DNA of 64,000 nt from SAR202 cluster bacterium. GTDB lineage: Bacteria > Chloroflexota > Dehalococcoidia > Lucifugimonadales > GCA-2712585. Shown here one piece after another: positions 677 through 26,157 of this stretch. The stretch lies in assembly GCA_016872285.1 (NCBI GenBank), contig VGZZ01000001.1, positions 34,236 to 98,235 on the forward strand, given 5' to 3'. The notes beneath the pieces were generated by a model that saw only the letters and a list, made by a program, of their open reading frames with translations, made no database searches and was not told the DNA's origin. The first letter of the stretch is position 1. The number at the start of each line of letters is the position of its first letter. The position numbers and the translations under genes were made by a program.

Positions 677-735
677 CGTTCCAGCCTTCCGCCGGAATTT
701 AGTCCTCTCCCCCTCCTGGGGGCTGGGTCTGGTAC

Positions 736-930
736 GTCATTTCGACCCGCCTCTGGCGGGAGAAATCTCAGCGACCGTCCGCTGCCATTACCCTTCGTGT
801 GGCAAACCGCGTCTTCCCTAAAGGCTGGCTAAACAAACCAGGGCTAAGTGATAAGATAAAGCCCTGTCATCCTGAGCGAAGTCGGTACTCCGACGTAGCC
901 GAAGGGTCTAATCGCCGTGCTTGCTGCCAC
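736..930. repeat. two copies of a dispersed REP/MITE-like hairpin element (GTCATYYYGAGC...GRRRRTCT..CGCCGT..TGCTGCCA)
   Basis: Copy 1 is 736..791 (gtcatttcgacccgcctctggcgggagaaatctcagcgaccgtccgctgccattac). Copy 2 is 866..930 (gtcatcctgagcgaagtcggtactccgacgtagccgaagggtctaatcgccgtgcttgctgccac). Each has an internal inverted repeat. The same family recurs at 5697..5839. Confidence 0.6.
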
Positions 931-968
931 CTCACCGCTAGCCCTCTTCCTTTAGGTCCCCTTCCTCC

Positions 969-1313
969 TCACTCCACTGCCTCCTTCACCTCCTTCTCCC
1001 CAATCGCCAGTCTCCCGTCCACCTCCGCCATCGGCCGACGGATCAGCCGCGGCTCCTTCAGCATCAATCGAATCATATCGTCCGCGCTCAGCCTCCCCTG
1101 CTCCAAGCCCATCGACTTAAAGCTCGGGCTCTTCCACGAAAACATATCCGCCAGCCTCGACTTTTTCGCCAGCTCCCTCAGCTCCGACTCGCTGAACGGC
1201 TCCTTGAAAAAGTCCCGTTCCTCAAAATCCACGCCCTTTAACGAGAGAAACTCCCTCGTCTTGCGGCATTGCGTTCACTTCGGCCACCAGTACAGTGTCA
1301 CCTTCTTTGCCAT
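969..1313 (-). CDS. ArsC/Spx/YffB-family thiol oxidoreductase, predicted selenoprotein (in-frame TGA at 1277..1275)
   Basis: The track ORF 969..1232 extends in the same frame to ATG 1313: MAKKVTLYWWPK-[TGA]-TQCRKTREFLSLKGVDFEERDFF...LIRRPM. That gives 114 codons, the normal family length. The TGA replaces the first Cys of the family CxxC, and the LIRRP motif is present. Confidence 0.7.
1241..1259 (-). promoter_or_regulatory. candidate bacterial SECIS hairpin
   Basis: RNA ACGAGGG-AGUUU-CUCUCGU forms a 7-bp stem (one G-U pair) with a 5-nt loop containing GU. It starts 15 nt 3' of the UGA. Confidence 0.4.
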
Positions 1314-1453
1314 GATTCCCTCCGTTCTCGGAACTCAATCACATATTCTACTCTTCGCATCAACACAAACCTCACCGTTTGCTCAATGATGCCTAGGCGG
1401 TTAATATGGCGGCGTACCCTCCAAGCCCCCTCACCCGTCATGGAGACCCCTAT

Positions 1454-2983
1454 ATGAAATATGACATCATCATCGTCGGCGCGGGCTCCGCCGGCTGCGT
1501 CCTCGCCGCCCGACTCTCGGAAAACCCCCGCCGCTCCGTCCTCCTCCTCGAGGCCGGCCCCGACTATCCCGACCTCCAATTCCTCCCCGACGACCTGAAA
1601 TACGGCTACACCCGCAACGCCGAGGCCCGTACCGGCAAGCACAACTGGTCCCTCACCGGGGACATCACCTCCACTCAGACCCGCGTCCACGTCGCTCAGG
1701 GCAAGGTCGTCGGCGGCTCCGGCGCTATCAACGGCCAGACCTTCCTCCGCGCCATCCCCCAGGACCATGACGACTGGGCCGCCCTCGGCAACACCGAATG
1801 GAGCTACGCCAAAGTCCTCCCCTTTTACCGAAAGATGGAGCGCGATCTGGACATCTCCGACGACTACCACGGCGCCGACGGCCCTATCCCCGTCCTCCGT
1901 CGCAAGCACGGCGAATGGCAGCCTTACCACTCCGCCTTCTACAAGGCCTGCGTCGCCGAGGGCTTCCCCGAGGACCCCGACATGAACGGCCCCAACACCG
2001 CCGGCGTCGGCCTCCTACCCATGAACAATCCAGACGGCATCCGAATGAGCGCTGCCCTCACCCACCTCGCTCCAGCCCGCCACCGCCTCAACCTCACCAT
2101 CCGGCCCAACGTCCTCGTCACCCGCGTTATCATCGACAACAAGCGCGCCATGGCCGTCGAGGCCGAAAGCGCCGGTCAGAAGTTCACCATCGAGGGCGGC
2201 GAAATCATCCTCGCCGCCGGCGGCCTCCGCTCCCCACACCTCCTCCTCCTCTCCGGCGTCGGCCCCGCCGACCACCTCCGCGCCGTCGGCATCCCCGTCG
2301 CCCATCACTCCCCCGCCGTCGGCCAGCACCTCACCAACCACCCCAACGCCAGCGTCACCTTCCGCGTCCGTGACGGCGTCCCCCTTACCCTCGGCCCCAA
2401 CACCGTCCGCCTCTCCGCCCGCTACACCGCCAGCGACTCCACCACCCCCAACGACATGGCCCTCCTCACCTCCTCCATCTATAACCCCGTCACCGGCGAG
2501 TATTTGCCCGATCGCGGCATCCGAATCTCCTGCTCCCTCTCCCTCCCCGCGGGCGCCGGCGACCTGCGGCTCTCCTCCGCCGACCCTCACCAGCAGCCCG
2601 CCTTCAATTACCGATATCTCGAAGATCCCTACGACCGCCAGCGCCTTCGCGAGGGCGTCCGCCTCTGTATGCGCCTGGGCCAGAGTGCCGCCTACAAAAA
2701 CGTTGTCACCCAGCGCACCGGCCCCACCAACGACGACCTCGCCTCCGACAAAGCCCTGGACGCGTGGCTCCTCGCCACCGTCGGCACCGCCCGCCACGTC
2801 TCCGGCACATGCAAAATGGGCCCCGCCTCAGACCCTAAAGCCGTCGTTGACCAGTATTGCCGGGTCCACGGCATTGACGCTCTCCGCGTCGCCGACGCCT
2901 CCATCATCCCCCAGATCACCCGCGCCAACACCAACGCCCCCGTCATCCTCATAGCCGAGCGCCTCGCCGCCTGGCTCTCCTAA
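1454..2983 (+). CDS. GMC-family FAD oxidoreductase (choline dehydrogenase-like)
   Basis: YDIIIVGAGSAGCVLAARLSE is a Rossmann FAD motif, and GMC signatures run through the ORF. The start is placed at ATG 1454 (GGAG 9 nt upstream) rather than the ORF-track start 1406. Confidence 0.85.
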   Translation: MKYDIIIVGAGSAGCVLAARLSENPRRSVLLLEAGPDYPDLQFLPDDLKYGYTRNAEARTGKHNWSLTGDITSTQTRVHVAQGKVVGGSGAINGQTFLRAIPQDHDDWAALGNTEWSYAKVLPFYRKMERDLDISDDYHGADGPIPVLRRKHGEWQPYHSAFYKACVAEGFPEDPDMNGPNTAGVGLLPMNNPDGIRMSAALTHLAPARHRLNLTIRPNVLVTRVIIDNKRAMAVEAESAGQKFTIEGGEIILAAGGLRSPHLLLLSGVGPADHLRAVGIPVAHHSPAVGQHLTNHPNASVTFRVRDGVPLTLGPNTVRLSARYTASDSTTPNDMALLTSSIYNPVTGEYLPDRGIRISCSLSLPAGAGDLRLSSADPHQQPAFNYRYLEDPYDRQRLREGVRLCMRLGQSAAYKNVVTQRTGPTNDDLASDKALDAWLLATVGTARHVSGTCKMGPASDPKAVVDQYCRVHGIDALRVADASIIPQITRANTNAPVILIAERLAAWLS

Positions 2984-2988
2984 TTCCT

Positions 2989-3921
2989 TTACTTCCCACG
3001 AGTCGGCGTCGGAGGCAGCGGCCAACCAGAAGGCTGAATCGACGTGCACTCATGCCGCACTTCCACACTGCCCTCGGTGAATTTAAAGTCTAGATGCAGC
3101 CGCCAATCGTCGCGCTCATACGTATTCGGCTCCACCTCCCGCCACCCCAGATACCCCAGGTATTCTCGGAACCATGCCTCCACCTCATCAGCGTCTTCGC
3201 CATTCACCAGTTCGCAATACTTCCCATCGCACACGCCGAAGACACCCTTGGGATGATGCGGAACCCCACGATGTGTCTGCCGAAGGTCAATCTCCATGTG
3301 CTCCGTCTCAAAACGCAGTATCACAATAGGATCGTCAAAGGACGGGTCCCGCACCCACACCTGGAGCGCGTCCTTCTCCTCCTTCACCAACCTCCAGCCG
3401 CGCCCAAGCATTGCGTAGCGGTAGAATTCTGCCGCGTCCCCCGGTCCAGTCTGGTCATAACGATACGGCGTGCTCGGCGCGCTGTAAGCAATCATCGAAT
3501 CAAAGCTCGGCAGACCTCCCTCAGGCCATGATTGGGACGGAAGGCTCAAAATCGGAAGCACAGGCGTCACTTTCACGCCATACGTCTTGTCGTTAATCTT
3601 GAAGGCCTTCATAGGCCCAACCCCGCTCAGACGTACCGCTCGACGCGCGTCATCCCCATGCAGATGCCCCACTAGATTAGATGGCCATTCACCCGCCGCA
3701 GCGGTGCCATCCGCAGCCAAAGTCTCCACCACCACCTCGTCCGGCTCCATTACCCCCGCATCCTTCGGCAGAGCATCCGTAGCCGTGCGATAGATGCCAC
3801 GAAGCCGCTCCAGCGTCTCATGATTCTGCTCCCCGGGCCAGGCCTGCTCAAGATTCATTCCGTAGACGCTCACCGTCCTCCGGCCCCGTCCCGCGTAAAC
3901 CGAAAAAAGTGTTCTGTCCAT
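2989..3921 (-). CDS. hypothetical protein
   Basis: 310-aa ORF with ordinary composition and no motif I recognise. The alternative start at M22 (3858) would reduce the overlap with the upstream gene. Confidence 0.5.
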   Translation of the reverse strand: MDRTLFSVYAGRGRRTVSVYGMNLEQAWPGEQNHETLERLRGIYRTATDALPKDAGVMEPDEVVVETLAADGTAAAGEWPSNLVGHLHGDDARRAVRLSGVGPMKAFKINDKTYGVKVTPVLPILSLPSQSWPEGGLPSFDSMIAYSAPSTPYRYDQTGPGDAAEFYRYAMLGRGWRLVKEEKDALQVWVRDPSFDDPIVILRFETEHMEIDLRQTHRGVPHHPKGVFGVCDGKYCELVNGEDADEVEAWFREYLGYLGWREVEPNTYERDDWRLHLDFKFTEGSVEVRHECTSIQPSGWPLPPTPTRGK

Positions 3922-15165: not shown

Positions 15166-16497
15166 CTATCGTTCGGAGGCCCCGCTGTCCGACAACACCA
15201 TCCTCGCCACCTCTCTGCCCAGCTTCACACTGTAGTTGGTACCCCTATCTTCTGGATATATCTGCGTCGTGTTCGCCAGGTAGAGACCTTTTATCGGCGT
15301 TCGATTGTTCGGTATCCGCTGACCGTAGTTCACGCCAATAATCGGCTGGGCCGCGTCCACCTTATGATGGTGATAGTCCTTAATCCAACTCCTCTCGAAC
15401 TGCGAGTTAATCCGCTTCAGGTGCGGCAAGTAATGCTCAAGCAGCTCCTCCGCGCTCATCTGGTACAGCGGCTCGTCCGTGGCGGGATAGTTGGTTAAAT
15501 AGACGACGTGGCTCCCGCCGTACAGCGATGTCGGCACAAAGTTGGTCTGCTCGATGAGTCCCACAAAGGGTATCGACCGGTCGGCAATGTTTACCCAGTA
15601 CTTGGGCGTCAGCGGCCGGTCCAGCACCAGTATCGCCAGCACTGCTGAAAGATAGCTCACGCTGGTTAACTTCTCCAGGTAGTCCTTCGGCAACTGCGGC
15701 GCTAATCGAGTAAATATATATGACGGTGTGGTGGCAATGACCGCATCGTACCGGCGGCTCTCCGGCGGCCTCCCTCGCCACTCCAGGTCCAGTCCCACCG
15801 CCCGGCCCTCCTCCACCACTACCCGCTTCGCCCCCGCCTGGATATGCACCTCCCCGCCCTTCTCTTTAATCTTCTCACCCAGCACGTCGAAGACCTCTCC
15901 GAAGCTCCCCATGGGATACCCCAGCGACTCCCTATCCCACAACCGCTTCCTGGACGCCACCCTCAGATGTATCTTGCACCACAGCCAAGCCATGCTTATC
16001 TTGTCGTAGTGCCTGCCGAATTTTCCCCGCAGCATCGGCTCCCAGATAACCTCGTAGGGCCTTCTCCCCACCCGCTTCTCAAGCCACTCCCTCGCCGTCA
16101 CCTCCTCAAACCGCTTCCAGCTGCTAGTCTTTTGCAGATAGAGCGTCGTCAGGCCCAGCCTTACCCTGTCCGGCAGGCTCAAAGGCTTGAACTTCAGCAG
16201 GTCCTTAGGTGACGCGAAGTCCCATATCCTGTCCCCATGAAACAACCCTACCTTTGAATATATCCACGCCAGCTTGTGCCCTAGGCCAATCTCGTTGATT
16301 AGCTCCACCATCGACGTGTCGCTGCGGAACAGGTGGTGGTAGCCCTTCTCCAACCTGCCGCCTCCCACTTCGAAAGTTGAGGCCTGTCCCCCCAGGAACG
16401 GCGCCCGCTCGAACACTTCCGCCCTATGCCCTCGTTGCATAAGCTCATGGGCCGCCGCCAGGCCCATGGCGCCGCCGCCGATAATGCCTACCTTCAT
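15166..16497 (-). CDS. FAD-dependent oxidoreductase (amine oxidase/phytoene desaturase-like fold)
   Basis: MKVGIIGGGAMGLAAAHELMQRGHRAEVFERAPFLGGQAS is a dinucleotide-binding motif. The start is set at ATG 16497, which forms an ATGA overlap with the upstream stop; the track start is 16605. Confidence 0.75.
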   Translation of the reverse strand: MKVGIIGGGAMGLAAAHELMQRGHRAEVFERAPFLGGQASTFEVGGGRLEKGYHHLFRSDTSMVELINEIGLGHKLAWIYSKVGLFHGDRIWDFASPKDLLKFKPLSLPDRVRLGLTTLYLQKTSSWKRFEEVTAREWLEKRVGRRPYEVIWEPMLRGKFGRHYDKISMAWLWCKIHLRVASRKRLWDRESLGYPMGSFGEVFDVLGEKIKEKGGEVHIQAGAKRVVVEEGRAVGLDLEWRGRPPESRRYDAVIATTPSYIFTRLAPQLPKDYLEKLTSVSYLSAVLAILVLDRPLTPKYWVNIADRSIPFVGLIEQTNFVPTSLYGGSHVVYLTNYPATDEPLYQMSAEELLEHYLPHLKRINSQFERSWIKDYHHHKVDAAQPIIGVNYGQRIPNNRTPIKGLYLANTTQIYPEDRGTNYSVKLGREVARMVLSDSGASER

Positions 16498-24169: not shown

Positions 24170-24802
24170 CTATGTTCTGGCCTGGACACCCGCGGGCCAG
24201 GGCGGTTGGGGCCGCTTAATCTCGCCAATGTTTACCCACAATGACATCAGCTTGGACAAACTTTCGTATATTTCCACCGAATCCTTCTTGTCAGGGTAGA
24301 ACATCTTGAGAAATGCGCTCTGTCCATTCGGAAAAACAAAGGTCGGCACCCCAAAAACGCCATACCTCTTCACGCCTTCGTCATGGCTTTCAGCAATGGT
24401 CTGCACAATCTTCGGGTCCTTCATATCCTTCTGAAGCCTTCCAATGTCCAGACCCGCCTGCTTGGCGCAGTCTAAGACAACGTTTATGTCTGTCAGCTCT
24501 TTACGCTGCTCGTGGCGCGCCTTCACCAGCGCCAGGTGAAACTTATCGTACGCCTCTCTGCCCTGCCGCATAGCCGCCAGGCCAGCCTTCAGCGCCAGCA
24601 TTCCCCGCACCTTCGTGTCGTCATGTTCCCACGCCTTCCATTCCGGCCCTTCCTTGCTGTTGATCTGGGCCAGCACAAAAGGCTTCCATTCCACCTCGGG
24701 ACGTTCCCCTGTCAACTCCTCCACGTTACGCAGCCAGACGGTCGCGTTATAAACGTAGGGTCAAGTGTAGTCGTAGAAGATGGTCATCTTTTCTTTTGCC
24801 AT
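24170..24802 (-). CDS. DsbA-like thioredoxin-fold protein, predicted selenoprotein (in-frame TGA at 24763..24761)
   Basis: The track ORF 24170..24724 extends in frame to ATG 24802: MAKEKMTIFYDYT-[TGA]-PYVYNATVWLRNVEELTGE.... That gives 210 codons. The TGA sits at the C/S-P-x-x-Y active-site position of the DSBA/HCCA-isomerase family. GVFGVPTFVF is the cis-Pro loop. Confidence 0.7.
24728..24747 (-). promoter_or_regulatory. candidate bacterial SECIS hairpin
   Basis: RNA ACGCGACC-GUCU-GGCUGCGU has 7 pairs with one A/C mismatch and a GUCU apical loop. It starts 13 nt 3' of the UGA. Confidence 0.4.
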
Positions 24803-24900: not shown

Positions 24901-26157
24901 ATGCCCCCTTCCCGAAAACGCAAAGCCCCTTCCTCTTCTGACCTCCTCGTCCCCTTCCAGCAATCCCTCTCTGCTGAAGCCCAACAGGTCTTCCAAACCC
25001 TGGCTCGACACGCCTCGCGCCATTCCTTACCTCTATACCTCGTCGGCGGCGCCCTCCGAGACCTTATCCTCCGCAATCCGACGAAAGACCTCGACCTGGT
25101 CGTCGAAGGCGACGCCATCTCCTTGGTCTCATCGGCAGCTGGAACCCTCGGCATCAAGCCTACCATCCACCACGCCTTCGGCACCGCCACAATTAAGGCC
25201 GGCTCGGTGCAAATCGACATTGCCACAGCTCGCAAGGAGACCTACGCCCGCCCGGGCGCTCTACCCACCGTGTCCCCCAGCACCATCGAAGACGACCTAC
25301 GCCGCCGCGACTTTACCTTGAACGCCATGGCTCTGGGTCTCGCGGGACCCCATCATGGCCATCTGCTGGACCCCCACCAGGGCATGTACGACCTGCGTCA
25401 GCGTCTTGTCCGCGTCCTCCACGACTCCAGTTTTCATGACGACGCCACCCGCATGTTTCGCGCCGTTCGATACGAGCAGCGCCTGGACTTCCAGATCGAG
25501 CCTCAGACCAAGGCTCTTATTAGCGAAGCCTTAGATAAAAACATGCTCTCCACCATCAGCGCCGACCGCCTGCGTAACGAGCTTGAACTCATGCTTGCGG
25601 AAGCAAGCCCCGGCAAAATGCTCCAGCGCACTCATGACCTCGGCCTCCTCCAGGCCCTCTTCCCACCCCTTGTCCGCACCCCACCCATCACCCTCATCCC
25701 CGAAAAAAGCGTCCCTCTGGTCTTTATCGCCGCCCTTGCCTACCGCCTCACCGCCAATGAGGCTGAAGCCTTTATTGCCCGCATCAACATGACCCACCCC
25801 TGGGCCGTCGCCGCCCGCCAGTCCGCCGACCTTCACTCCATCGAAGAAAAGTTATCCAGGCCGGACCTGACCCGCCGAGACCTGTGGGAACTGCTGGAGC
25901 ATCGACCCCTTGTCTGCGTTAAGGCCGCCGCCGCCGTGGCAGAAAATCCCCTGGCAAAAGACAGGCTGCGGCAGTACATTAGTCTTTATCAGCGCATGAA
26001 GCCTGTCCTGACTGGTGACGATCTTTTGGCACTGGGGTATGCTCCCGGGCCCAAAGTCGGCCAGATACTGCGGCGGCTCCAGATATCCAGGTTGGAAGGA
26101 AAAACAAATACTAAAGATGATGAAGTGAAGCTGGCTAAAGCCTGGCTGGCTTCCTGA
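24901..26157 (+). CDS. tRNA nucleotidyltransferase / poly(A) polymerase family protein (CCA-adding-like)
   Basis: LYLVGGALRDLIL....DLDLVVEGDA is the pol-beta nucleotidyltransferase head motif, followed by RRRDFTLNAM. Confidence 0.8.
   Translation: MPPSRKRKAPSSSDLLVPFQQSLSAEAQQVFQTLARHASRHSLPLYLVGGALRDLILRNPTKDLDLVVEGDAISLVSSAAGTLGIKPTIHHAFGTATIKAGSVQIDIATARKETYARPGALPTVSPSTIEDDLRRRDFTLNAMALGLAGPHHGHLLDPHQGMYDLRQRLVRVLHDSSFHDDATRMFRAVRYEQRLDFQIEPQTKALISEALDKNMLSTISADRLRNELELMLAEASPGKMLQRTHDLGLLQALFPPLVRTPPITLIPEKSVPLVFIAALAYRLTANEAEAFIARINMTHPWAVAARQSADLHSIEEKLSRPDLTRRDLWELLEHRPLVCVKAAAAVAENPLAKDRLRQYISLYQRMKPVLTGDDLLALGYAPGPKVGQILRRLQISRLEGKTNTKDDEVKLAKAWLAS

What the first reader, a model, noticed from the sequence alone, without database searches (positions are those of the whole stretch)
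969..1313. Predicted selenoprotein: ArsC/Spx/YffB-family gene with TGA replacing the first Cys of CxxC
The ORF track reports only an 87-aa C-terminal fragment. Reading the same frame upstream gives ATG(1313)-MAKKVTLYWWPK-TGA(1277..1275)-TQCRKTREFLSLKGVDFEERDFF...LIRRPMAEVDGRLAIG. That is 114 codons, the normal size of the family.

The TGA falls exactly where homologues such as YffB and Spx have the redox Cys (..NC.TC.KA..wL), giving a U-x-x-C motif.

Fifteen nt downstream lies a 7-bp hairpin with a GU-containing loop (1259..1241), at the spacing used by bacterial SECIS elements.

Other genes in the window terminate normally at TGA, for example 26155..26157 and 16494..16496. This is therefore site-specific recoding, not a variant genetic code.
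Basis: partly seen in the sequence, partly recalled or inferred. Interest (0 to 1): 0.7.

Follow-up and report, generated by a model that had tools for sequence, protein, structure and literature searches.

The report
Known ArsC/Spx-like selenoprotein gene, mis-annotated
A small redox-protein gene in this SAR202 (Chloroflexota) genome almost certainly uses an in-frame TGA to insert selenocysteine, guided by a conserved RNA hairpin, but it belongs to a selenoprotein family already published in 2008, so it is a correct but ordinary finding that automatic annotation still truncates.

Summary
On the minus strand, ATG 1313 opens a 114-codon ArsC/Spx-fold gene. It has an in-frame TGA (1277..1275) where homologues carry the first Cys of CxxC, and a hairpin 15 nt downstream.

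The selenoprotein interpretation is strongly supported.
- 48 of 51 related species-level genome loci (Dehalococcoidia/SAR202 and Smithella/Syntrophaceae) have TGA at the same codon, with conserved coding sequence on both sides. Three relatives have Cys there.
- The hairpin (8-bp stem, GUN loop, 23 nt after UGA) shows compensatory changes in 6 of 8 pairs. It meets the published bacterial SECIS model. It is absent from all three Cys-form genes.
- TGA ends 13 of 37 long ORFs in the window, so the genetic code is standard.
- A second gene in the window (24170..24802) has a TGA matching the published "DsbA 3 UxxV" selenoprotein family.

No Sec machinery lies in the 64 kb, and the whole genome could not be examined.

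It is not new. The GOS 2008 supplement lists members of this clade under "Arsenate reductase 2 (UxxC)". The one modestly useful point is that NCBIfam's selenoprotein model NF041106 misses this sub-clade, so databases hold it as 87–103 aa fragments. The protein's function is inferred only: a selenol/thiol redox protein, neither a canonical ArsC nor a canonical Spx.

The parts
969..1313 (-). Full selenoprotein coding sequence: 114 codons plus stop TGA 971..969. ArsC/Spx-fold protein with a U13-x-x-C16 motif.
   Evidence: With C in place of U, Pfam ArsC PF03960 scores 1.4e-14 and Glutaredoxin PF00462 scores 1.1e-08; the 87-aa fragment alone scores 5.6e-10. The closest solved relatives are Spx structures, aligned over residues 5-108.
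1319..1323 (-). Shine-Dalgarno GGAGG, 5 nt upstream of the ATG.
   Evidence: Read directly from the sequence.
1311..1313 (-). Start codon ATG.
   Evidence: In 46 of 49 related genes a start codon lies 10-12 codons upstream of the TGA.
1275..1277 (-). In-frame TGA, the predicted selenocysteine codon (residue 13).
   Evidence: TGA sits at the homologous codon in 48 of 51 related loci and TGC/TGT (Cys) in L024/L027. P0004 has Cys there. It aligns with Spx Cys10.
1266..1268 (-). TGC, Cys16: the predicted resolving cysteine of the UxxC motif.
   Evidence: T10 and G11 of alignment A1 are invariant. Cys is present in 49 of 49 clade members.
1240..1260 (-). Bacterial SECIS upper hairpin. Stem arms are 1260..1252 and 1248..1240, and the apical loop GUU is at 1251..1249. 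The loop begins 23 nt after the UGA.
   Evidence: Fold. Covariation: 93.9% of cells paired against 33-71% when the partner is slid, and 6 of 8 pairs change on both sides. RNAalifold predicts the same helix. The loop starts GU in 48 of 49 genes. 45 of 49 Sec forms make 7-8 of 8 pairs, against 1-2 of 8 in the three Cys forms. It fits the bSECIS model in PMC13188914.
1231..1269 (-). Window-specific lower stem (1269..1265 pairing with 1235..1231) that encloses the upper hairpin. Weakly supported.
   Evidence: It appears in the predicted MFE structure. A lower helix in the register used by Smithella genes is only 66.7% paired across the family, so this helix is lineage-specific at best.
969..1232 (-). 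The 87-aa GTG-started fragment that ORF callers and GenBank report (FJ320_00160, 'hypothetical protein'). This is an annotation artefact, not a separate gene.
   Evidence: P0001 is 99% identical and is named 'hypothetical protein FJ320_00160 [SAR202 cluster bacterium]'. In the model of the Cys homologue, beta1 (residues 4-8) and helix alpha1 (13-24) lie in the part that the fragment lacks.
24170..24802 (-). Second predicted selenoprotein gene in the window (DsbA-like, U-P-Y-V motif, TGA 24763..24761). It is not part of the finding, but it is independent evidence that this genome decodes UGA as Sec.
   Evidence: DSBA PF01323 scores 2e-17. It is 39% identical over 200 aa (E = 4e-54) to the GOS 'DsbA 3 UXXV' read, with U aligned on the TGA.

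Best explanation
The gene at 969..1313 (-) encodes a 114-residue thioredoxin-fold protein of the ArsC/Spx superfamily. Codon 13, UGA, is read as selenocysteine.

Recoding mechanism. This follows the established bacterial Sec pathway and is not shown here. As the ribosome reaches UGA13, the mRNA hairpin beginning 15 nt downstream acts as a bacterial SECIS. It has an 8-9 bp stem and a GUU loop whose G-U lies 23-24 nt after the UGA. SelB carrying Sec-tRNA(Sec) binds the hairpin and delivers Sec instead of release factor 2 terminating the chain.

Protein function (inferred from fold and motif only). Sec13 sits at the N-cap of helix alpha1 and Cys16 one turn later. Together they form a U-x-x-C redox centre that cycles between a selenol/thiol state and a selenenylsulfide state. 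The protein is most likely a small cytoplasmic selenol/thiol-disulfide oxidoreductase or a redox-sensing protein. It is neither a canonical arsenate reductase nor a canonical Spx regulator.

Status. The gene belongs to the selenoprotein family published as 'Arsenate reductase 2 (UxxC)' or 'arsenate reductase-like protein'. Databases truncate it to 87 aa because gene callers stop at the UGA.
For: Shown here:
- TGA lies at the same codon in 48 of 51 species-level loci from two phyla, with the reading frame open and conserved on both sides.
- Cys occupies that position in L024, L027 and P0004, and in Spx, ArsC and YffB.
- The codons upstream of the TGA behave as coding sequence: third-position entropy 1.43 against 0.68 and 0.97 at positions 1 and 2, and dN/dS 0.44.
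- Adding the N-terminal 27 residues raises the Pfam ArsC score from 39.8 to 54.6 bits and adds a Glutaredoxin match.
- The AlphaFold model of the Cys homologue P0004 (pLDDT 85) places beta1 and alpha1 in this N-terminal part. Its fold matches Spx, YffB and ArsC at TM about 0.8.
- The hairpin is conserved in position and co-varies. It meets the four bSECIS constraints quoted.
- The hairpin is present in 45 of 49 TGA forms (7-8 of 8 pairs) but not in the 3 Cys forms (1-2 of 8 pairs).
- TGA is an ordinary stop for 13 of 37 long ORFs in the window.
- A second TGA-interrupted gene of a published selenoprotein family lies in the same window. Another lies in L039.

From the literature:
- Members of this clade are listed as selenoproteins in the GOS supplement (PMC2398784). 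The window protein is 44% identical to one of them, E = 2e-31.
- Dehalococcoidia genomes with 46-49 selenoprotein genes are on record (PMC13326102).
Against: - No tRNA-Sec, selA, selB or selD was found in the 64-kb window or in the 51 flanking loci, and the rest of this genome could not be searched.
- No Rfam family matches the hairpin.
- Because the hairpin lies in coding sequence, part of its conservation could come from protein constraint. The Cys-form control argues against this but rests on only three genes.
- No experimental evidence of selenium incorporation exists for any member of this clade, as far as the papers read here show.
- The protein's biochemical role is inferred from the fold and motif alone, and no conserved operon partner gives a hint.
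Confidence: 0.9

Rival explanations
1. The TGA is a true stop. The locus is a decayed or split gene, and only the 87-aa GTG-started fragment (or nothing) is made.
For: Gene callers and GenBank annotate exactly this. One relative, L046, has lost its N-terminal part, so decay does occur in the family.
Against: - The TGA is fixed at one codon in 48 of 51 species from two phyla. The 10-12 upstream codons stay open, start with ATG/GTG/TTG and are under purifying selection.
- A strong SD precedes ATG 1313.
- The fragment would lack beta1 and the alpha1 active-site helix of the fold.
- A co-varying hairpin would have no reason to follow a plain stop codon.
Confidence: 0.02
2. The UGA is read through, but not as selenocysteine. 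For example, Cys or Trp is inserted by near-cognate or SelB-mediated mis-charging, or this particular organism has lost the Sec pathway and relies on leaky termination.
For: No Sec machinery is visible in the sequence held. Nothing here measures selenium.
Against: - The hairpin has the SelB-type signature (G-U at the start of a small apical loop, 23 nt from the UGA) and is conserved in 48 of 49 genes.
- A lineage that had lost Sec would be expected to fix TGC/TGT, as L024, L027 and P0004 did.
- A second TGA-containing gene of a known selenoprotein family is kept intact in the same window.
- The class Dehalococcoidia includes very selenoprotein-rich genomes.
Confidence: 0.05
3. The organism uses a variant genetic code in which TGA is a sense codon (for example Trp or Gly).
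For: None beyond the in-frame TGA itself.
Against: - 13 of 37 long ORFs in the window end in TGA, including ORFs carrying SRP54 GTPase-type and PolyA_pol-head (poly(A) polymerase/CCA-adding family) Pfam domains.
- Homologues have Cys at this position, not Trp or Gly.
- Apart from one pair of adjacent same-frame genes, only two in-frame TGAs in the window lie in otherwise unassigned coding sequence, and both sit at published Sec sites.
Confidence: 0.01
4. The protein is a Sec-containing Spx-type transcription regulator that binds RNA polymerase, and not an oxidoreductase. This is a rival only for the functional half of the explanation.
For: - Spx proteins are the closest solved relatives (E = 1.4e-14; TM 0.81).
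- The best NCBIfam model is Spx/MgsR TIGR01617, at 73.3 bits against a cut-off of 75.05. A Smithella-type sequence that I composed by hand from the translations (not the product of any one locus) scores 80.9.
- CxxC, R14, R91, R92 and P93 of Spx are conserved.
Against: - Spx Gly52, essential for alpha-CTD binding (PMC8501982), is not conserved.
- The alpha-CTD contact residues T53, D54, E72 and L76 differ.
- The DNA-groove residue K62 is an invariant Pro in the clade.
- The sigma-A-binding C-terminal helix alpha7 is absent in 47 of 49 members, and the alpha6 basic patch is replaced by neutral or acidic residues.
Confidence: 0.1

Closest known systems
'Arsenate reductase 2 (UxxC, cd03032)' selenoprotein family of the Global Ocean Sampling survey (Zhang & Gladyshev 2008, PMC2398784). 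Later reviews list it as 'Arsenate reductase-like protein (UxxC)' (PMC9312934, PMC13188914).
   Same: - ArsC/Spx fold and small size.
- Sec is the first residue of UxxC, directly after strand beta1.
- Three of the published reads (JCVI_READ_1318105, 1121231, 1095390070075) belong to the same clade as the window gene. They match loci L049, L051 and L050 almost residue for residue. READ_1318105 is 44% identical to the window protein, E = 2e-31.
   Different: - The published set is heterogeneous, and most of its 42 reads belong to another sub-clade (WYY.R.GUTTCTKA...).
- That sub-clade is the one NCBIfam NF041106 captures, at 116 bits. The window clade scores only 25-40 bits against a cut-off of 85.
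- The window gene itself is not annotated as a selenoprotein in GenBank.
Spx / MgsR redox-sensing RNA-polymerase-binding regulators of Firmicutes (TIGR01617; PDB 1Z3E, 3GFK, 7F75)
   Same: - Closest solved structures and best HMM match.
- A redox pair in the same place (Cys10-x-x-Cys13 against Sec13-x-x-Cys16).
- Conserved R14, R91-R92-Pro93 and overall fold.
   Different: - Sec replaces the first Cys.
- Gly52 and most alpha-CTD contact residues are not conserved.
- Lys62 is replaced by an invariant Pro.
- The C-terminal helix alpha7 and the ClpXP/YjbH degron region are missing.
- It occurs in Chloroflexota and Desulfobacterota, not Firmicutes.
Glutaredoxin-coupled arsenate reductase ArsC (TIGR00014; E. 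coli/R773 ArsC) and its Sec form 'Arsenate reductase 1 (UxxS)' (PMC1088965, PMC2398784)
   Same: - Same superfamily (PF03960).
- The nucleophile sits at the same position (ArsC Cys12).
- Arg94 is conserved.
- A Sec-for-Cys12 version of ArsC is a known selenoprotein.
   Different: - The motif is U-x-x-C, not C/U-x-x-S.
- Arg107 is absent (Ala, Gly or a gap).
- The TIGR00014 score is 51.9 against a cut-off of 106.
- No ars operon genes lie nearby.
Canonical bacterial SECIS (E. coli fdhF type; consensus model of Zhang & Gladyshev as summarised in PMC13188914)
   Same: - A stem-loop inside the coding region just after the UGA.
- A small apical loop opening with G-U.
- A spacing within 16-37 nt and a free energy below -7.5 kcal/mol.
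   Different: - No sequence similarity to the fdhF element.
- A 3-nt loop, the minimum the model allows.
- No Rfam model matches it.

Membership tests
Bacterial selenoprotein gene (Sec-UGA plus bSECIS) | An in-frame UGA at a position where homologues have Cys (a Sec/Cys pair). | tested here: met
   L024 and L027 have TGC/TGT, and P0004 has Cys. Spx Cys10 and ArsC Cys12 align with the UGA.
Bacterial selenoprotein gene (Sec-UGA plus bSECIS) | Coding sequence conserved on both sides of the UGA across species. | tested here: met
   48 of 51 loci keep the frame open, with a start 10-12 codons upstream in 46 of 49. dN/dS is 0.44 upstream and 0.20 downstream.
Bacterial selenoprotein gene (Sec-UGA plus bSECIS) | A bSECIS with a 3-9 nt apical loop, a 4-16 bp stem, G in the first two loop positions, 16-37 nt between UGA and loop, and MFE <= -7.5 kcal/mol (PMC13188914). 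| tested here: met
   The loop is GUU (3 nt), the stem is 8-9 bp, the spacing is 23 nt and the MFE is -10.0 kcal/mol. The stem co-varies, and the hairpin is absent from the Cys forms.
Bacterial selenoprotein gene (Sec-UGA plus bSECIS) | selA, selB, selC (tRNA-Sec) and selD in the same genome. | not testable with these tools
Indirect support comes from a second TGA-containing gene of a known selenoprotein family in the window.
Bacterial selenoprotein gene (Sec-UGA plus bSECIS) | Selenium physically incorporated at the UGA position. | not testable with these tools
   This needs 75Se labelling or mass spectrometry.
'Arsenate reductase 2 / arsenate reductase-like (UxxC)' selenoprotein family (GOS 2008) | An ArsC/Spx-type domain (pfam03960 / cd03032) with Sec as the first residue of UxxC. 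| tested here: met
   PF03960 scores 1.4e-14. The motif is U13-T-Q-C16.
'Arsenate reductase 2 / arsenate reductase-like (UxxC)' selenoprotein family (GOS 2008) | Sequence similarity to published members with Sec aligned. | tested here: met
   44% identity and E = 2e-31 to JCVI_READ_1318105. That read and two others equal the proteins at L049, L051 and L050, which were retrieved as relatives of the window gene.
NCBIfam NF041106 'ArsC family (seleno)protein' (ArsC_rel_Se_1) | A whole-protein score at or above the curated cut-off of 85 bits. | tested here: not met
   25.3 bits with C at position 13 and 19.3 with X. Two other sequences representing the clade score 28.3 (GOS read JCVI_READ_1318105) and 40.3 (a Smithella-type sequence I composed by hand from the translations), while GOS READ_17177 scores 116.
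Glutaredoxin-coupled arsenate reductase ArsC (TIGR00014) | A score at or above the curated cut-off of 106.05 bits. | tested here: not met
   51.9 bits.
Glutaredoxin-coupled arsenate reductase ArsC (TIGR00014) | Catalytic Cys12 together with the arginine triad Arg60, Arg94 and Arg107. The residue roles come from my own knowledge of R773 ArsC; PDB mutant entries for C12S and R60A/K appear. | tested here: not met
   Cys12 corresponds to Sec13 and Arg94 is conserved in 49 of 49. Arg107 is a gap in the window protein and mostly Ala in the clade (Ala in 36 of 49). The Arg60 column is ambiguous by two positions in the alignment.
Spx/MgsR regulators (TIGR01617) | A score at or above the curated cut-off of 75.05 bits. 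| tested here: inconclusive
   The window protein scores 73.3, just below the cut-off. A Smithella-type sequence that I composed by hand from the translations (not the product of any one locus) scores 80.9, and GOS read JCVI_READ_1318105 scores 70.6.
Spx/MgsR regulators (TIGR01617) | The CXXC motif, Gly52 and the RPI motif (PMC8501982). | tested here: not met
   CXXC is present as UXXC. RP[IVLM] is present. The Gly52 column holds P, S, K, A or R and no Gly.
Spx/MgsR regulators (TIGR01617) | The C-terminal helix alpha7 (residues 119-131) that contacts sigma-A region 4 and carries the YjbH/ClpXP degron. | tested here: not met
   The protein ends at the equivalent of Spx residue 113. The column of Spx R119 is a gap in 47 of 49 clade members.

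The most novel reading that the evidence does not exclude
This Sec-dominated short branch of the ArsC/Spx superfamily could be a selenium-based redox sensor that regulates transcription or another partner protein in Dehalococcoidia/SAR202 and Syntrophales. It carries Sec in 48 of the 51 species-level genomes sampled, across two phyla, and it is stand-alone with no conserved operon partner. On this reading it would be a functional analogue of Spx whose switch is a selenenylsulfide instead of a disulfide. No Sec-dependent transcription regulator is known to me. The evidence does not exclude this, because Spx is the closest relative and R14, R91, R92 and P93 are kept. However, most Spx-specific RNA-polymerase contacts are missing.
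Probability: 0.08. Interest if true: 0.6.

Novelty: new member of a known kind. Interest (0 to 1): 0.2.

Why it matters
For biology this is a routine confirmation. It adds one more thioredoxin-fold selenoprotein in a lineage already known to be rich in them, and the family has been in print since 2008.

The practical value lies in annotation.
- The gene is deposited as an 87-aa hypothetical protein.
- Of 104 close homologues in a 5.8-billion-protein collection, all but three are 73-103 aa. Every one I inspected apart from P0004 starts downstream of the TGA.
- The only curated NCBIfam selenoprotein model for ArsC-like proteins (NF041106) does not reach this sub-clade.

A dedicated model, seeded from the 49 full-length sequences and the SECIS alignment assembled here, would recover these genes automatically.

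The clean contrast between TGA forms and Cys forms also makes this family a tidy example of how a SECIS co-evolves with, and is lost together with, the Sec codon. In the TGA forms the hairpin is present in 45 of 49 genes. In the three Cys forms it is absent.

Tried and rejected
- Rfam, at gathering threshold on the whole window and at E <= 10 on 1100..1400. It found no SECIS or other relevant family, only a chance lncRNA hit.
- ARAGORN on the window and on all 51 loci. It found no tRNA-Sec.
- tblastn with E. coli SelA, SelB and SelD against the window and the loci. The only hit was in L039 (29% identity to the SelB GTPase domain). It directly follows tRNA-Thr/Tyr/Thr genes, so it is most likely tuf, not selB.
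- A search for a conserved operon partner, by clustering ORFs within +/-4 kb in all loci. Nothing is shared beyond close relatives. Neighbours in the window are a 144-aa protein with no Pfam match (downstream) and a divergent GMC oxidoreductase. Some Smithella loci have a DUF3783 protein nearby.
- A conserved lower SECIS helix (columns 5-10 with 44-49). It is only 66.7% paired, so I rejected it as a family feature.
- Sigma-70 promoter and intrinsic terminator scans of 700..1600. They found nothing.
- Structure prediction of the window protein itself with Cys for Sec.
- Using the fold search to discriminate sub-families. Spx, YffB and ArsC all match at TM about 0.8.
- The look-up of encoding contigs for P0001. 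It returned only a 1.5-kb contig, so it gave no sequence beyond the window edge.
- The antisense 196-aa ORF 799..1389 (+). I dismissed it as a shadow of the real gene; its 'homologues' in other loci are the antisense strand of the same gene.
Full report
**1. What is in the sequence**

On the minus strand an ATG at 1313..1311 is preceded by GGAGG (1323..1319), five bases upstream. It opens a frame reading MAKKVTLYWWPK, then TGA (1277..1275), then TQCRKTREFLSLKGVDFEERDFF...GEKEVKEAVE, ending at TGA 971..969. That is 114 codons.

The mechanical ORF list reports only the GTG-started 87-aa tail, 969..1232. GenBank does the same: the 99%-identical database protein P0001 is 'hypothetical protein FJ320_00160 [SAR202 cluster bacterium]', 87 aa.

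Fifteen bases after the TGA lies a hairpin at 1260..1240. It has 8 Watson-Crick/GU pairs plus a closing G-U and a GUU loop. Its free energy is -10.0 kcal/mol alone. With a further window-specific lower stem it is -18.6 kcal/mol, z = -2.5 against dinucleotide shuffles.

TGA is also an ordinary stop here.

**2. The full-length reading is the real gene**

With Cys in place of the TGA, the 114-aa protein matches Pfam ArsC (PF03960) at 1.4e-14 and Glutaredoxin at 1.1e-08. The 87-aa fragment alone scores 5.6e-10.

The closest solved structures are Spx proteins (E = 1.4e-14). They align from residue 5 to 108, with the TGA on Spx Cys10 and Cys16 on Spx Cys13.

The tool would not accept the Cys-substituted window sequence. 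I therefore modelled the full-length Cys homologue P0004 (55% identity, motif K-C-S-T-C). The model has pLDDT 85 and pTM 0.74. Strand beta1 is at residues 4-8 and helix alpha1 at 13-24, so the first Cys sits at the helix N-cap, as in every thioredoxin-fold redox protein. The model superposes on Spx, YffB and ArsC at TM about 0.8. The 87-aa fragment would lack beta1, the active-site helix and part of beta2.

**3. Comparative evidence for recoding**

A scan of one genome per species recovered 51 related loci, from Dehalococcoidia/SAR202 (Chloroflexota) and Smithella/Syntrophaceae (Desulfobacterota).

- In 48 loci the homologous codon is TGA, and the frame upstream stays open and similar (M..V.FYCW.K-TGA-TTCRKA).
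- L024 and L027 have Cys (WWKSCSQCRD).
- L046 has lost its N-terminus.
- A start codon lies 10-12 codons upstream of the TGA in 46 of 49 genes.
- In those upstream codons, variability is highest at third positions (entropy 0.68, 0.97 and 1.43 for positions 1, 2 and 3) and mean dN/dS is 0.44. The 24 codons after the TGA give 0.20.

Of 104 close database homologues, all but three are 73-103 aa. Every one I inspected apart from P0004 begins downstream of the TGA position. So the Sec form dominates this clade and is systematically truncated in databases.

**4. The hairpin is a SECIS**

In an ungapped alignment of the 60 nt from the TGA in 49 genes (A1), columns 19-26 pair with 30-37.

- 93.9% of cells are paired, against 33-71% when the 3' arm is slid by 1-3 columns.
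- 6 of 8 pairs change on both sides, and none of 500 shuffles reaches the observed covariation score.
- RNAalifold independently predicts the same helix.
- Loop positions G27 and U28 are at least 90% conserved, and 48 of 49 loops start GU.

The element meets all four constraints of the published bacterial SECIS model: loop 3-9 nt, stem 4-16 bp, G in the first two loop positions often followed by G or U, 16-37 nt from the UGA (here 23), and MFE <= -7.5 kcal/mol (PMC13188914).

The structure lies in coding sequence, so protein constraint could mimic conservation. I therefore looked at the three Cys-form genes. L024, L027 and the gene for P0004 (L056) can form only 1-2 of the 8 pairs at the same positions. 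Of the TGA forms, 45 of 49 form 7-8. P0004 encodes ...CRTYRAWMQEE, close to the ...CRQVRAWLLRE of the SAR202 Sec form L005, which does have the hairpin. The hairpin therefore follows the TGA and not the peptide.

A lower helix seen in many Smithella genes is only 66.7% paired family-wide, so I treat it as lineage-specific.

**5. Does this genome decode Sec?**

No tRNA-Sec, selA, selB or selD lies in the window or the flanking loci. The one selB-like hit, in L039, follows tRNA-Thr/Tyr/Thr genes and covers only the GTPase domain, so it is most likely tuf. The rest of the genome could not be reached, and this criterion stays open.

Two indirect lines support Sec use.

First, I scanned the window for other in-frame TGAs flanked by coding-like sequence. 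In otherwise unassigned coding space only one further candidate turned up, at 24170..24802 (-). It reads MAKEKMTIFYDYT-TGA-PYVYNATVWL...
- It matches Pfam DSBA at 2e-17.
- It is 39% identical over 200 aa (E = 4e-54) to a read of the published 'DsbA 3 (UxxV)' selenoprotein family, with U aligned on the TGA.
- An apical loop GUCU starts 21 nt after the UGA, although that fold is no better than shuffles.
- L039 likewise carries a DsbA-like gene with VYSDYI-TGA-PFCYIG, 3.4 kb from its ArsC-like gene.

Second, Dehalococcoidia genomes with 46-49 selenoprotein genes are among the ten richest in BSepDB (PMC13326102).

**6. What kind of protein it is**

The protein belongs to the ArsC/Spx/YffB superfamily but fits none of the characterised branches.

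Not a glutaredoxin-coupled arsenate reductase:
- TIGR00014 scores 51.9 bits against a cut-off of 106.
- The motif is U-x-x-C, not C-x-x-S.
- ArsC Arg107 has no counterpart. It aligns with a gap in the window protein and mostly Ala in the clade. Arg94 is invariant.

Closest to Spx/MgsR, but missing Spx's defining RNA-polymerase contacts:
- TIGR01617 scores 73.3 bits against a cut-off of 75.05. A Smithella-type sequence that I composed by hand from the translations scores 80.9.
- Gly52, described as essential for the alpha-CTD interaction (PMC8501982), is not conserved.
- T53, D54, E72 and L76 differ.
- The DNA-groove residue Lys62 is an invariant Pro (signature RSPSFK).
- The protein ends at the equivalent of Spx residue 113, so the sigma-A-binding helix alpha7 and the degron are absent.

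No operon partner is conserved across the family.

My best inference is a stand-alone cytoplasmic selenol/thiol oxidoreductase or redox-sensing protein that cycles through a Sec13-Cys16 selenenylsulfide. This rests on the motif and fold only. A Spx-like regulatory role remains possible at roughly 10%.

**7. Comparison with what is known**

ArsC-type selenoproteins are long established.
- 'Arsenate reductase (UxxS)' was reported from the Sargasso Sea in 2005 (PMC1088965).
- 'ArsC-like' selenoproteins were reported in deltaproteobacteria in 2006 (PMC1794560).
- 'Arsenate reductase 2, cd03032, UxxC' (42 sequences) was reported from the Global Ocean Sampling data in 2008 (PMC2398784).

The 2008 supplement prints the sequences. 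JCVI_READ_1318105 (MIYYTWNKUSTCKKTRELLLQNNF...MLKEPRLIRRPLVVYENRVSVGADVKKLV), READ_1121231 and READ_1095390070075 are essentially the proteins I reconstructed at L049, L051 and L050. These are members of the window gene's clade, and READ_1318105 is 44% identical to the window protein, E = 2e-31. The clade has therefore been in print as a selenoprotein for many years.

Most of that published set belongs to a different sub-clade. That sub-clade is the one NCBIfam's 'ArsC family (seleno)protein' model NF041106 captures (116 bits for READ_17177). The window clade scores 25-40 bits against a cut-off of 85. This explains why annotation pipelines still truncate it.

**8. Verdict**

| Question | Verdict |
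|---|---|
| Observation | confirmed |
| Interpretation (site-specific Sec recoding in an ArsC/Spx-family gene with U-x-x-C) | supported, about 0.9 confidence |
| Novelty | a new, unannotated member of a known selenoprotein family |
| Interest | low (0.2) |

The main residual uncertainty is the unexamined Sec machinery. What is useful is the annotation gap, a clean alignment showing SECIS gain and loss, and the incidental second selenoprotein gene.

Noticed in passing
window 24170..24802 (-), TGA at 24763..24761: A second predicted selenoprotein gene. It is a DsbA-like protein reading MAKEKMTIFYDYT-U-PYVYNATVWL... Pfam DSBA scores 2e-17. It is 39% identical over 200 aa (E = 4e-54) to a published GOS 'DsbA 3 (UxxV)' selenoprotein read, with U aligned on the TGA. 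An apical loop GUCU starts 21 nt after the UGA, but the fold is no better than shuffles. Its conservation in other genomes was not examined.
   Followed up: partly
L039:2548-2550 (gene about 2512..3060, +): A Lake Baikal Dehalococcoidia MAG has an in-frame TGA in a DsbA/FrnE-like gene (MTIKLTVYSDYI-TGA-PFCYIGLERV, the UxxC type). It lies 3.4 kb upstream of that genome's ArsC-like selenoprotein gene, so genomes with this family repeatedly carry other thioredoxin-fold selenoproteins.
   Followed up: partly
window 969..1232 and database proteins P0001-P0104: There is an annotation gap. Of 104 close homologues in the protein collection, all but three are 73-103 aa. Apart from P0004, every one I inspected starts downstream of the TGA. 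NCBI names include 'hypothetical protein' and 'ArsC/Spx/MgsR family protein'. NCBIfam's selenoprotein model NF041106 scores this clade at 25-40 bits against a cut-off of 85.
   Followed up: yes
L001-L051: The same Sec-containing clade, with its SECIS at the same position, occurs in two distant phyla: Chloroflexota (Dehalococcoidia/SAR202) and Desulfobacterota (Smithella/Syntrophaceae). Protein identity between them is about 50%. This suggests horizontal transfer of the gene together with its SECIS. No phylogeny was made.
   Followed up: no
L046:5900-6300: In one Deltaproteobacteria MAG the homologue has lost its N-terminal part. There is no beta1, CxxC or TGA, and stop codons lie upstream. It looks like a decayed copy.
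   Followed up: no
protein P0090 (Dehalococcoidia): This homologue carries an insertion of about 24 residues (SVLHEPVLLPAHPELVEGHERDNG) in the alpha2-alpha3 loop region that other members lack. Its origin is unknown.
   Followed up: no
window 799..1389 (+): A 196-aa ORF lies antisense to the selenoprotein gene. Its apparent 'homologues' in 18 other loci are simply the antisense strand of the same conserved gene, so it is a shadow ORF and not a gene.
   Followed up: yes
window 1406..2983 (+): The divergently oriented neighbour is a GMC-family FAD oxidoreductase (GMC_oxred_N 2e-44, GMC_oxred_C 5e-35). The likely true start is the ATG giving MKYDIIIVGAGSAG, near 1451. The pairing with the selenoprotein gene is not conserved in other genomes.
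   Followed up: partly
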